64,000 bases of DNA from assembly GCF_056746865.1 (NCBI RefSeq), contig NZ_CM163382.1, one strand, 5' to 3'. This document shows, one piece after another, positions 15,001 to 18,000 of the stretch; the stretch's first letter is position 1, and every line of letters begins with the position of its first letter. The position numbers were made by a program.

Positions 15001-18000
15001 ATGAAGTGCGCAAGACAGACGTTACTGTTGCCAAGAACTATTTGCGTGAAGACGAAATCAAAGAGCTTAATCGCATCGTCAATATGTGGCTCGACTTTGC
15101 TGAAGACCAAGCACTGCGTCGCAAGCAGGTATTTTTACAGGACTGGGCCGATAAGCTTGACCAGTTCTTGAGTTTTAACGATAGAGATGTATTAAACGGT
15201 GCAGGAAAAATCTCCAAGAAAGACGCTGATGACAAAGCGAAATTGGAGTTTGACCGCTTTGCCCAGCAGCGCCGTCGTTTAAAAGAAGCCGAAGGCGCAC
15301 GGGCCAATATCGCAGCCCTCAAGGCCATACTAAAAAAAGATAAATAGCCGATATAGTACAGCCCTGATCTCTAATGAGTTGAGGGCTGTGTTGTAAGATC
15401 ATAACTATAAAGGATTATCCATCTTAAAATCGTCGATATCGCCTGTCATTTTGAATAGATTGGTGTCATTCCAACGGCACAGTTGTCTAACCCGCATTAG
15501 ATTTGAGTTGGCTCTGCGGATTATTGAGAAAGCATCTTCAACAGCAGTAATCACCGATTTTTCCCAATCTTGTGCTCGGGTAAAGGTGCTTTGTGAATAG
15601 CGATAATTGCCCTCACGGGGGAGGTAATGGCTGATCACCTGGTATTTGTCAGAATTCTTTTTAGGTTTAAACTCGTTGTAAACCCAGAAAATTTCGAGTT
15701 TTTTGTTTCTTTGCCTTACACGACAACCAAAATGACCTGGGTAGCCTTCAGAGTTTTTACCTCTATGTGCAACGTTGTTCAGCCAGAACAAGTCTGCAAT
15801 TTTTTGTGCTATGTAGAAGTAGCGGAGCTGTTCTATTTCGGTTGATTTATGGGTGTAGTGTAGATATTGCTCTGATATGGTTAAGGAAAAAGCATTGCGT
15901 CGTCTTGATTAACATTTGTGCTATTGACAATAAAGGTTTCCCAAATATTAATTTGTGTTTCTAGTCCTTTAAATGATTTTGAGAAGGCTTCTATGTACTC
16001 AGATTGCGGTTGATTTCCCCCATTTAGTGCTGCACCAAATGTAGCTATCTGTTGTTCTAAAAATGAATGATTTTTGGTCATTACATAATCCTCTGTGTGG
16101 TTGATACTGCGTATTTTCATGAAAGGAGATCACTCAATAACCCCCCTGTGTCAGCATAGTTGTCGCCTCAATTTTTTAAGGAGATAACAATGCCAGGACA
16201 ACCAATACCAAATGAGCTCAAAGAAAAAGGACTGATATGGCTTTTGCCACCATACTGTTGGTCACACCGTCAGATAGCCCGGAAGCTGAAGATCAGTGCC
16301 TCAGTTGTATCAAAATGGAGATGTGAGTTAGTGGAGCAAGGACTTTTACCTGAAAATGAAAAGATTACCTCCGTTGATGTTGAAGACTGGACACCGGAGC
16401 GTCGATTCTCAGTTGTTCTTGAGACGGCTACGCTGTCTGTCACGAACGGTGCAATAGTGGATCACTTTTCATCCGTCGTTGACACTGTCAGAAATGGAGC
16501 TTGCCGATTATTGCCGACGCATGGGATTGTTTGTTGAACAGGTTAAAGAATGGCGGGCTATCTCAATTCAGGCGCATGAAAAAAATTGACGGAAAATATT
16601 CGAACAGACAGGGCATTGCGTGACGCAAAAAATAAGTTACGAGAACTGGAGAAAGAGCTTAAGCGCAAAGATAAAGCTCTGGCGGAAGCTGCGGCCCTGC
16701 TTATATTAAGGGAAAAGTTCAATGCCCTCTGGGACAACAGCGAGGAAGACTGCCCCCTCTCCTGGAGCGGCATAAAATTATTTCTCTTGTCCGTGAGGCC
16801 GTCGCCAACGGCGCCCGGAAAGGTCAGGCTTGTAGGTGTATCGGTATTTCTATTCGGACACTTCAGCGCTGGACTAATGGCAACATCATCACCACGGACC
16901 GAAGATCCGATACTGTAAACAGCTCTCCCCGAAATAAGCTGTCAGAAGCGGAAAGATTGCGAATACTGGAGTTGTGCAACTCTCCAGAGTTTGCATCCTT
17001 GCCTCCAAATGTGATCGTACCAACTCTGGCAGACAGAGGTATTTATATTGCTTCTGAATCAAGTTTTTATCGTGTACTGAAATCAGCCAAGCAGTTGAAG
17101 AAACGATCCCGTGAATGCCAGTATAAACTGGCCTGATGTACTCAGGGCCGTTGCACCGAATCAAGTCTGGAGTTGGGACATCAGCTATTTGCCGTCCTGG
17201 GTCAGAGGCCAGCATTTTTACCTCTATATGATCGTCGATATTTACAGTCGCAAAATTATTGCTGCTGAGGTATTTGCCAGCGAATCTGGAAAACATGCAG
17301 CAGAACTACTCCAGCGTGCAGTATGGAATGAAAAATGTTCATCCAACAATCTGGTACTCCATTCTGATAACGGTGGTCCCATGCGCAGTGACACGTTGTT
17401 GGCGAAAATGTATGCGCTTGGTGTGCTAAGTTCTTATTCCCGGCCAAGAGTCAGCAATGATAATCCTTACTCAGAATCTTTGTTCCGGACTCTCAAATAT
17501 TGTCCCTGGTGGCCTGAGAACGGTTTTCGCACTATTGATGATGCCAGAGTATGGGTAAACCAGTTTTGTAAACTGGTACAACTTTGAACATAAGCACAGC
17601 GGGATCAAATACGTCACGCCAGCCGAGCGTCATCAAGGTAATGACATGAAAATACTGGCAGCCTGAAAAGCGGTATACCAGCTAGCTCGCGAGCAACATC
17701 CTGAACGTTGGGGCAAGTATCTACGTAACTGGAACTACATATCAGAAGTCTACCTGAATCCAGAAAAAGAGGCTGCATAACGTAATTTTATTACAAAAGG
17801 CGACAACTACCTTGAAAAACACCGCCAAATCATGATCGATTCGAATGCCAAACTGCGATCGATTCAGATGCCATTTTGCATGCTGCCAGAGCAATATTCC
17901 CCCTGATGGTTGTATCAGAGATGGTATGCCGGTACTTTGCGGGTTGTTCCTGTCAGGTTATCGTGCACCTCCACATTCGTTGTCACTACCGGCATTCCGT

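What the first reader, a model, noticed from the sequence alone, without database searches (positions are those of the whole stretch)
15405..16120. Frameshifted orphan gene of unknown function next to the defence cluster
Two minus-strand ORFs overlap in different frames. The downstream frame stays open 39 codons upstream of its first start codon, which is the signature of a single-base frameshift, probably in the short A/T run near 15885-15893. The joined product would be about 238 aa and AT-rich. I recognise no family. Its position between rhuM and IS debris makes a defence or abortive-infection-type gene plausible, either decaying or affected by a homopolymer sequencing error.
Basis: seen in the sequence. 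Interest (0 to 1): 0.5.

Follow-up and report, generated by a model that had tools for sequence, protein, structure and literature searches.

The report
Frameshifted mobI gene, stranded island relic
The two overlapping reading frames are one broken copy of mobI, a known helper gene that lets a genomic island borrow an IncC plasmid's transfer machinery; it sits in an island remnant that has lost every other part needed to move, so it is an ordinary pseudogene and not a new defence gene.

Summary
On the minus strand, ORF1 (16120/16081..15881) and ORF2 (15791..15405) are two halves of one gene. They are split by loss of one T in a T6 run, which is T5 at window 15887-15891. Restoring that T gives a 225-aa protein that exists exactly in public data (P0026). 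It is 87-92% identical to intact orthologues in trmE-inserted islands.

The gene is not an orphan. It is mobI_M (Pfam PF19456, E=4e-30), the oriT-recognition adaptor of MGIVchHai6-type IncC-mobilizable islands (Rivard et al. 2020). In that study, constructs starting at +304 or +409 did not complement. Position +409 is the TTG that starts the window's 128-aa ORF2.

All 71 complete E. coli genomes carrying this segment have T5, so it is a fixed mutation and not a sequencing error.

Homology to intact islands starts only 26 nt upstream of the start codon. Beyond that lies IS3-family debris. The promoter region, oriT, 85-86-xis, int and att sites are missing from the 64-kb window. One contig (L010) has the same IS junction but still T6, so the 5' truncation came first.

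The remnant (window 2992-16107) keeps its defence cargo and lies in a pheV island. Interest is low.

The parts
15405..16081 (-). mobI_M pseudogene, 677 nt. It would be 678 nt (225 codons plus stop) with the missing T restored.
   Evidence: The repaired translation equals P0026 exactly. PF19456 MobI covers residues 91-203. It is 92% identical to P0004 and 87% to the V. cholerae trmE-island orthologue.
15887..15891 (-). Frameshift site: T5 run where intact alleles have T6 (…GCAATGCTTTTT[T]CCTTAACC…).
   Evidence: Searches show this is the only difference between the window mobI coding sequence and the intact alleles L009 and L011. All 71 complete E. coli genomes with the segment have T5.
15881..16081 (-). 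N-terminal fragment ORF: residues 1-66 of MobI_M, then Pro and a stop. PGAP calls it a 66-aa 'hypothetical protein', WP_012311738.1. The mechanical 79-aa ORF extends to 16120, into the IS end.
15792..15908 (-). Open extension of 39 codons without a start codon. It encodes MobI_M residues 59-97 in the downstream frame and contains invariant family residues L74, E84, Q85, R87, Y88, Y90 and A92.
   Evidence: The Pfam match starts 7 residues upstream of the TTG.
15405..15791 (-). C-terminal fragment ORF: residues 98-225, TTG start. PGAP calls it 'conjugative transfer protein MobI(A/C)', WP_001342709.1. It corresponds to the non-complementing +409 construct of Rivard et al.
   Evidence: PMC7449626.
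16082..16107 (-). The only native 5' sequence that remains: 26 nt of leader with a GAGGA Shine-Dalgarno-like motif.
   Evidence: Homology to L005, L006, L009, L011, L012 and L015 begins at 16107. Junction alignment.
16108..17780 (+). IS3-family transposase debris, frameshifted with an internal stop. Its TG… end abuts mobI and replaces the AcaCD-responsive promoter, oriT, 85-86-xis and int.
   Evidence: PGAP pseudogene annotation. Pfam HTH_23 and rve hits. The end sequence matches thousands of IS3-family copies. Junction.
2992..16107 (.). Whole remnant of the MGIVchHai6-type island: RelB-like gene, hsdM, hsdS, hsdR, KwaA-like, KwaB-like, rhuM and the mobI pseudogene. IS1 bounds it at the low end and IS3 debris at the high end. 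It is interrupted by 1310-bp insertions at 9707-11016 (in hsdR) and 13364-14673 (IS1203, in rhuM).
   Evidence: blastn against the complete trmE island L015 gives 91-99% identity in five collinear blocks. L010 lacks both internal insertions.

Best explanation
This is a dead copy of mobI_M, the mobilisation adaptor gene of an MGIVchHai6-type (group A) integrative mobilizable island.

In intact islands the layout is trmE | int - xis - 86 - 85 - oriT - mobI - defence cargo. When an IncC plasmid is present, its activator AcaCD switches on xis and mobI. The island excises. The 225-aa MobI_M then recognises the island's own oriT, which lies just upstream of mobI, and recruits the plasmid's MOB_H12 relaxase TraI through TraI's C-terminal MobI-binding domain. 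The island DNA is nicked and exported through the plasmid's type IV secretion system.

In this window that system is broken at every level:
- An IS3-family element removed everything further than 26 nt upstream of the start codon, including the promoter, oriT, 85-86-xis, int and attL.
- IS1 removed the other end of the island.
- Afterwards one T was lost from a T6 run. This splits the gene into a 66-aa N-terminal peptide and a C-terminal frame with no start codon, whose first usable start (TTG) yields residues 98-225.

Shown here: the identity of the gene, the exact lesion, the absence of the cis sites and partner genes, the order of events, and fixation in E. coli. Taken from published experiments on a close orthologue: fragments starting at residue 63 or 98 do not support mobilisation. 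Inferred: the E. coli fragments are non-functional leftovers that hitch-hike with the still useful defence cargo inside pheV or leuX islands.
For: - Family: Pfam PF19456 MobI scores E=4e-30 and 104.7 bits against a cutoff of 26.6.
- Intact 223-249-aa orthologues read straight through the junction as …DDAMLF-SLTISEQYLHY….
- A one-T repair gives a protein identical to P0026.
- Orthologues sit in the canonical trmE | int-xis-DUF927-HTH-ig-mobI-rhuM-type I R-M layout. This is the layout described in PMC7449626.
[quoted passage not shown] In the window, +409 is the TTG at 15791. Constructs starting at +304 and +409 did not complement.
- Homology to intact islands begins at 16107. No int, xis, 86, 85, intergenic region, oriT or trmE-att sequence is found in the window.
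- Order of events: L011 has native upstream sequence and T6. L010 has the same IS junction and T6. The window has the IS junction and T5.
- Fixation: 71 of 71 complete E. coli genomes have T5. The 128-aa and 66-aa products are each on at least 1000 contigs, against 3 contigs for the exact intact allele.
- No sigma-70-like promoter lies upstream of the start on the minus strand.
- MobI mechanism: bioRxiv 10.1101/2025.04.21.649884.
Against: - The mobI coding sequence carries no change other than the missing T relative to intact alleles. There is therefore no independent sign of relaxed selection, and the frameshift may be recent.
- The 128-aa fragment retains 105 of the 116 Pfam profile positions, so some residual binding activity cannot be excluded by sequence alone.
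- The complementation data come from the V. cholerae orthologue, and the MGIVchHai6 sequence itself was not retrieved. The closest V. cholerae trmE-island protein I hold is 87% identical.
- Expression of the fragments was not measured.
- A single-tRNA -1 slip on C-UUU-UUC would in principle regenerate the wild-type sequence at a low level.
Confidence: 0.93

Rival explanations
1. Homopolymer sequencing or assembly error: the gene is really intact (T6) in this strain.
For: The lesion lies in a homopolymer. T6 versions of the same allele exist in three public contigs, one of them (L010) in the same IS-truncated context.
Against: All 71 complete E. coli genomes with the segment show T5. They come from many laboratories and sequencing platforms, and at least 60 are 100% identical over 721 nt. 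The two frameshift products are each recorded on at least 1000 contigs. A 5-6 nt run is short for systematic error.
Confidence: 0.01
2. Programmed -1 ribosomal frameshifting or phase variation: the T5 run is a recoding or contingency site, so full-length MobI_M is still made, constitutively at a low level or in a switchable way.
For: A -1 re-pairing of tRNA-Phe on C-UUU-UUC followed by reading UCC would recreate the wild-type …MLF-SLTI… sequence (reasoned from the sequence). Both T5 and T6 alleles occur in the same IS-truncated context.
Against: There is no X-XXY-YYZ heptamer in the zero frame. There is no strong structure downstream: the MFE is -6.8 kcal/mol over 100 nt, with nothing placed 5-9 nt after the site. 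All orthologues are simply in frame, so nothing has evolved for recoding. The run is too short for efficient slipped-strand switching, and 71 of 71 complete genomes are T5. Even a full-length protein would have no oriT, promoter, xis or int to work with.
Confidence: 0.03
3. Neo-functionalised fragments: the C-terminal MobI fragment (128 or 157 aa) or the 66-aa N-terminal peptide is expressed and retained because it interferes with IncC/IncA plasmid transfer. It would do so by titrating TraI's MobI-binding domain or by poisoning MobI multimers.
For: Over-expressed MobI_M lowers pVCR94 transfer about 40-fold (PMC7449626). MobI self-associates and binds TraI's MIBD, and the decoy protein CtiC inhibits transfer by this route. 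The fragment keeps most of the Pfam domain. The allele is widespread in E. coli.
Against: No promoter-like site or Shine-Dalgarno motif precedes the TTG or ATA starts. The predicted long helix 59-104 is cut. The spread is explained by linkage to the R-M, Kiwa-like and rhuM cargo and by near-100% identity, which indicates recent spread. In this window the neighbouring hsdR and rhuM genes are also broken.
Confidence: 0.03
4. A defence or abortive-infection gene, possibly decaying.
For: It lies beside rhuM, a Kiwa-like pair and a type I R-M system, and it is AT-rich.
Against: PADLOC gives no hit. There is a strong match to MobI. Orthologues have an experimentally shown mobilisation role. The adjacency is the conserved backbone-cargo boundary of the parent island.
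Confidence: 0.01

Closest known systems
MobI_M (ORF 84) of MGIVchHai6 and other group A trmE-specific IncC-mobilizable genomic islands (Rivard, Colwell & Burrus 2020, mSphere; PMC7449626)
   Same: The repaired product is 225 aa, with the start codon at the equivalent of ATG118 and internal ATG(+304) and TTG(+409) at the same positions. It is 87-92% identical to trmE-island orthologues. rhuM lies convergently downstream, followed by a type I R-M cargo.
   Different: The gene is frameshifted (T6 to T5). The AcaCD-responsive promoter, oriT, 85-86-xis, int and att repeats are missing. The copy lies in a pheV island (a leuX island in another strain), not at trmE.
MobI_C of IncA/IncC conjugative plasmids (the source of PGAP's 'MobI(A/C)' name) and MobI of SXT/R391 ICEs
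   Same: Same Pfam family, PF19456. Same presumed role as the oriT-recognition factor that recruits the MOB_H12 relaxase TraI.
   Different: Only 27% identity over residues 92-215. The plasmid proteins lack the N-terminal region of about 90 aa found in island-type MobI. No NCBIfam HMM for MobI matched the window fragments, so the RefSeq name is a family-level label and not an equivalog call.
CtiC of SGI1-like elements, a decoy that binds MobI (bioRxiv 10.1101/2025.04.21.649884)
   Same: Relevant only to the speculative reading: a small island-encoded protein that interferes with IncC relaxosome assembly through the MobI-TraI interaction.
   Different: CtiC mimics TraI's C-terminal domain and is not a MobI fragment. 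There is no sequence relationship, and no evidence that the window fragments are expressed.

Membership tests
MobI protein family (Pfam PF19456) | Match to the family HMM above the gathering score | tested here: met
   104.7 bits against a cutoff of 26.6, E=4e-30, covering profile positions 4-116 of 116 on the extended frame. The repaired protein scores 103.6 bits and the 128-aa fragment 97.1 bits.
MGIVchHai6-type group A island, mobI_M gene | Intact ORF of about 225 aa starting at the ATG118 equivalent | tested here: not met
   A one-nucleotide deletion at 15887-15891 splits the ORF after codon 66. Repair restores 225 aa identical to P0026.
MGIVchHai6-type group A island, mobI_M gene | Close orthology to MobI of trmE-inserted islands | tested here: met
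   87-92% amino-acid identity over the full length to P0002-P0006. 98.7-99.9% nucleotide identity to L009, L011, L012 and L015, which are complete trmE islands or fragments of them.
MGIVchHai6-type group A island | oriT in the intergenic region immediately upstream of ORF 84/mobI | tested here: not met
   Only 26 nt of native upstream sequence remain. Of the 531-bp intergenic region of L005, only its last 26 nt have a match in the window. The junction with IS3 debris lies between 16108 and 16107.
MGIVchHai6-type group A island | AcaCD-responsive promoter P84 within the 117 bp upstream of the start codon | tested here: not met
   IS sequence replaces 91 of those 117 bp. No sigma-70-like site lies upstream on that strand. 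The AcaCD box motif itself was not searched as a pattern.
MGIVchHai6-type group A island | Divergent 85-86(DUF927)-xis operon and a tyrosine integrase next to trmE, with 18-bp att repeats | tested here: not met
   blastn of L005, L006, L009, L012 and L015 against the window finds nothing left of mobI. The att pattern TTCTGTATYGGNAARTAA gives 0 matches at up to 2 mismatches. The window's tRNA is tRNA-Phe (pheV).
MGIVchHai6-type group A island | Defence cargo, typically type I R-M, downstream of mobI | tested here: met
   rhuM, KwaB-like, KwaA-like, hsdR, hsdS, hsdM and RelB-like genes are collinear with L015.
MGIVchHai6-type group A island | Mobilisation by IncC plasmids that depends on MobI_M, TraI, TraD and TraJ | not testable with these tools
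   This needs mating assays. Published truncations equivalent to the window fragment fail to complement (PMC7449626).
Plasmid MobI(A/C) equivalog (the PGAP product name) | High identity to, or an NCBIfam equivalog HMM match with, IncA/C plasmid MobI | tested here: not met
   27.4% identity over 55% of the query against IncC plasmid mobI loci. No MobI model hit in NCBIfam.
Programmed -1 ribosomal frameshift site | Slippery X-XXY-YYZ heptamer, downstream stimulatory structure, and conservation of the two-frame arrangement in orthologues | tested here: not met
   No heptamer in the zero frame (sequence). Weak downstream fold of -6.8 kcal/mol. Orthologues are single in-frame ORFs.
Anti-phage defence or Abi proteins (PADLOC-DB) | Match to any defence-system protein model | tested here: not met
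   No hit at E≤1 for the repaired protein or for either fragment.

The most novel reading that the evidence does not exclude
The stranded MobI fragments are not inert. Either the C-terminal fragment (residues 98-225, or 69-225 from a non-canonical ATA start) or a low level of full-length protein made by -1 slippage on the T5 run is produced. It would bind TraI's MobI-binding domain or MobI multimers and so act as a chromosomal fertility inhibitor of incoming IncA/IncC plasmids. In that case an anti-plasmid function would be retained together with the anti-phage cargo.
Probability: 0.03. Interest if true: 0.5.

Novelty: already known. Interest (0 to 1): 0.12.

Why it matters
This matters mainly for annotation. 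RefSeq labels the C-terminal fragment as a 'conjugative transfer protein MobI(A/C)', with 128, 131, 143 or 157 aa depending on the record. It labels the N-terminal fragment as a separate 'hypothetical protein'. Neither is flagged as a pseudogene. A naive screen for mobility genes would therefore score about 1.3% of complete E. coli genomes (71 of 5426) as carrying an IncC-mobilizable element that cannot move. It is also a clean example of how a mobilizable defence island became stranded, through IS truncation of both ends followed by a frameshift. Its R-M, Kiwa-like and rhuM cargo lives on inside tRNA-associated E. coli islands. No new biology is implied.

Tried and rejected
- NCBIfam gave no MobI model, only a sub-threshold PRK13672 hit of 16.9 bits against a cutoff of 67. 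The PGAP name could therefore not be reproduced by HMM.
- tblastn of ORF1 against the plasmid collection found no match. The N-terminal region is specific to island-type MobI.
- Foldseek of the AlphaFold2 model (pLDDT 72.7) against the PDB found nothing at E≤0.001. The top hits were long-helix V-ATPase stalk subunits with TM below 0.3, so no fold assignment was made.
- I first took four window-specific substitutions at conserved positions (Q101L, L124Q and two P-to-S changes) as signs of pseudogene decay. I withdrew this because the intact allele P0026 in complete islands carries the same residues.
- I therefore dropped a dN/dS analysis: the window and the intact alleles have no coding differences other than the indel.
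- Searches for oriT, the intergenic region and the trmE 3' end in the window with short-word blastn gave only chance-level 11-13-mers. The att-repeat pattern search gave 0 hits.
- Bioteau et al. 2023 (PMC10484663) matched 'mobI' only through words such as 'mobility' and had no relevant content.
- Table S1 of Rivard et al. lists an intact E. coli trmE island (NCTC10962) but not this relic or its accession.
- I did not retrieve the MGIVchHai6 (HC-36A1) sequence itself. In L005 the published '+106 GTG' position reads GAG and there is an in-frame stop upstream, so L005 is a relative and not the reference element.
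Full report
**1. The observation**

On the minus strand, the ORF listing finds a 79-aa ORF at 16120..15881 and a 128-aa ORF with a TTG start at 15791..15405. Six-frame translation shows that the downstream frame is open for 39 further codons (15908..15792) containing no ATG, GTG or TTG. It also shows that the two stop-to-stop frames overlap by 28 nt. The region is 38.5% G+C, against 47.9% for the window. The description is accurate. The only qualification is that the start-to-stop ORFs themselves do not overlap.

**2. Identity of the gene**

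- A 100% identical stretch in E. coli chromosomes is annotated as a 66-aa 'hypothetical protein' plus 'mobI: conjugative transfer protein MobI(A/C)'.
- Pfam confirms the family. PF19456 (MobI) scores 104.7 bits (cutoff 26.6, E=4e-30), and the match starts 7 residues upstream of the TTG, inside the extension that has no start codon.
- NCBIfam has no matching model. ORF1 has no Pfam, NCBIfam or plasmid tblastn match.
- A search of 5.8 billion proteins with the extended frame found intact relatives of 189-249 aa covering 92-96% of the query.
- These relatives read …NVNQDDAMLF-SLTISEQYLHY…, which is ORF1 joined to the extension.

**3. The lesion**

The window reads GCA ATG CTT TTT CCT TAA. Intact loci read GCA ATG CTT TTT TCC TTA ACC. 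One T has been lost from a T6 run, leaving T5 at 15887-15891. Re-inserting it gives a 225-aa protein starting at the second ATG (16081). That protein is 92% identical to P0004 and 86-91% identical to P0002, P0003, P0005 and P0006. Invariant family residues L74, E84, Q85, R87, Y88, Y90 and A92 lie upstream of the TTG and are lost from the 128-aa product. An exact-sequence look-up shows that the repaired protein exists as such (P0026).

**4. What the gene does in intact elements**

The orthologues lie in a conserved layout: trmE | integrase - HTH_17 (xis) - DUF927 (86) - HTH_17 (85) - about 530 bp intergenic - mobI - rhuM or other cargo - type I R-M. This is the group A MGIVchHai6 family described by Rivard, Colwell & Burrus (PMC7449626). 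That paper reports:

- MobI_M is a 225-aa protein translated from ATG118 of ORF 84.
- Deleting it lowers mobilisation by the IncC plasmid pVCR94 about 2,700-fold.
- The AcaCD-responsive promoter P84 lies in the 117 bp before ATG118.
- oriT (minimal 49-bp IG8) lies immediately upstream of ORF 84.
- Mobilisation also needs the plasmid's TraI, TraD and TraJ.
- Constructs starting at +304 (ATG) or +409 (TTG) do not complement.

[quoted passage not shown] In the window the +409 TTG is codon 98, at window 15791, which is the start of ORF2. The window's annotated 'MobI(A/C)' therefore corresponds to a fragment that was shown to be non-functional in a close orthologue.

[quoted passage not shown] The relation to plasmid MobI_C is distant: 27.4% identity over residues 92-215. 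This agrees with the published figure of 27%.

**5. Everything else the gene needs is missing**

- blastn of intact islands against the window finds homology only from 16107 downwards, 26 nt upstream of the start codon. It runs through mobI into rhuM.
- The junction is sharp. The window reads …CATGAAAATACGCA|GTATCAACCACACAGAGG…, whereas L011 reads …AACTGGCTCT|GTATCAACCACACAGAGG….
- The sequence above 16107 is the TG… end of an IS3-family element. Its transposase is itself a pseudogene.
- No int, xis, 86, 85, intergenic region, oriT or trmE 3'-end sequence occurs anywhere in the 64-kb window. The 18-bp att repeat listed in the paper's Table S1 has no match at up to 2 mismatches.
- No sigma-70-like promoter lies upstream of the start on that strand.
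- At the other end the remnant stops at an IS1 near position 2990.
- The surviving block (2992-16107) is collinear with the complete trmE island L015: RelB-like, hsdM, hsdS, hsdR, KwaA-like, KwaB-like, rhuM, mobI, at 91-99% identity.
- In the window, hsdR and rhuM are additionally split by 1310-bp insertions. The one in rhuM is an IS1203 copy.
- The only tRNA in the window is tRNA-Phe at 40671-40746. In the near-identical strain AR13438 it lies next to yqgA, which identifies it as pheV. In strain EM10-18-28 the same block lies in a leuX island.

**6. Order of events and population status**

- L011 has the native 85-intergenic upstream region with T6 and is 99.85% identical.
- L010 has the same IS3 junction as the window (homology continues to 16437) and the same cargo, but still T6 and no IS1203 in rhuM.
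- The window has T5.

The 5' truncation therefore came before the frameshift, so the gene was already orphaned when it broke. The window's mobI coding sequence differs from L009 and L011 only by the missing T. The frameshift is thus recent, and there is no later decay.

A 71-nt T6 probe matches 71 complete E. coli genomes, all at 70/71, which means T5. At least 60 of them are 100% identical over 721 nt. The 128-aa and 66-aa products are each recorded on at least 1000 contigs, whereas the exact intact allele was found on 3. A sequencing error is therefore not credible. Intact E. coli alleles do exist (P0028, 3 aa different), but in complete trmE islands in draft genomes.

**7. Structure**

AlphaFold2 on the 14-sequence alignment gives a moderate model (pLDDT 72.7). 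It has N-terminal helices of low confidence, a long helix at 59-104 (the best-predicted part), a three-stranded sheet at 116-153 and a long C-terminal helix at 172-221. The frameshift after residue 66 and the TTG at residue 98 both cut the long helix. Foldseek against the PDB finds no significant relative. PF19456 covers residues 91-203. This explains why annotation pipelines still name the fragment.

**8. Rivals**

- Programmed -1 frameshifting: a single-tRNA slip on C-UUU-UUC would recreate the wild-type sequence. Against this, there is no X-XXY-YYZ heptamer, the downstream fold is weak (-6.8 kcal/mol), and all orthologues are plain in-frame ORFs.
- Defence or Abi function: no PADLOC hit, and the adjacency to defence genes is the backbone-cargo boundary of the parent island.
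- Decoy or fertility-inhibitor role for the fragments: conceivable, given that over-expressed MobI_M inhibits pVCR94 about 40-fold and given the CtiC precedent. There is no promoter, Shine-Dalgarno motif or other sign of expression.

**9. Verdict**

The gene is neither an orphan nor a defence gene. It is the pseudogene of mobI_M in an IS-truncated, immobile remnant of a known IncC-mobilizable island family, fixed and widespread in E. coli. Novelty: already known. Interest is low. The main practical value is correcting the RefSeq annotation, which presents the fragments as two intact genes.

Noticed in passing
window 11568-12964 (+): The two genes between hsdR and rhuM, which PGAP annotates as 'hypothetical protein', match the PADLOC models KwaA (E=9e-16) and KwaB (E=7e-14). 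They form a Kiwa-like defence pair carried as cargo of the island remnant. Pfam gives no hit for either.
   Followed up: partly
window 9707-11016 and 13364-14673; a further copy from about 18627: Two 1310-bp insertions interrupt hsdR and rhuM. The one in rhuM is an IS1203/IS629-type element, and the one in hsdR has the same length and a 296-aa ORF of the same size. Contig L010 and several complete genomes lack both. A third IS1203-type copy lies further on. With mobI, three genes of the block are broken in this strain.
   Followed up: partly
window 15405-16081; L001, L007 and L008 annotations: RefSeq/PGAP annotates identical DNA inconsistently. The MobI fragment appears as 128 aa (TTG start) or 157 aa (which requires a non-canonical ATA start). 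Cluster members of 131 and 143 aa also exist. The N-terminal fragment is a separate 66-aa 'hypothetical protein'. None is flagged as frameshifted.
   Followed up: yes
L007 (NZ_CP063476.1) versus the window and L008 (NZ_CP097170.1): The same near-identical block (RelB-like gene through the mobI pseudogene plus IS3 debris) lies in a leuX (tRNA-Leu) island in strain EM10-18-28 and in a pheV (tRNA-Phe, next to yqgA) island in the window and in strain AR13438. The immobile remnant has therefore moved between tRNA-associated islands, presumably through IS-mediated or homologous recombination.
   Followed up: no
protein P0025 (Logan assembly): A related allele shows an independent frameshift at a different homopolymer, the A-run in …IAQK|IADL…, giving a 121-aa product. 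Either this gene breaks repeatedly at short A/T runs or this is an assembly error.
   Followed up: no
window 17915-18589 (-): A 224-aa ORF (PGAP 'hypothetical protein', WP_001470157.1) lies between the IS3 debris and an IS1203 copy. It has no Pfam hit at E≤0.01. Its origin and function are unknown.
   Followed up: no
L015 (Logan SRR16123137): This is a complete trmE island with the same cargo order as the window's remnant. Its host trmE is only about 68% identical to both the E. coli and the V. cholerae genes, so this island type circulates across distant Gammaproteobacteria. A resolvase gene follows the RelB-like gene, beyond the point where IS1 cuts the window's remnant.
   Followed up: partly
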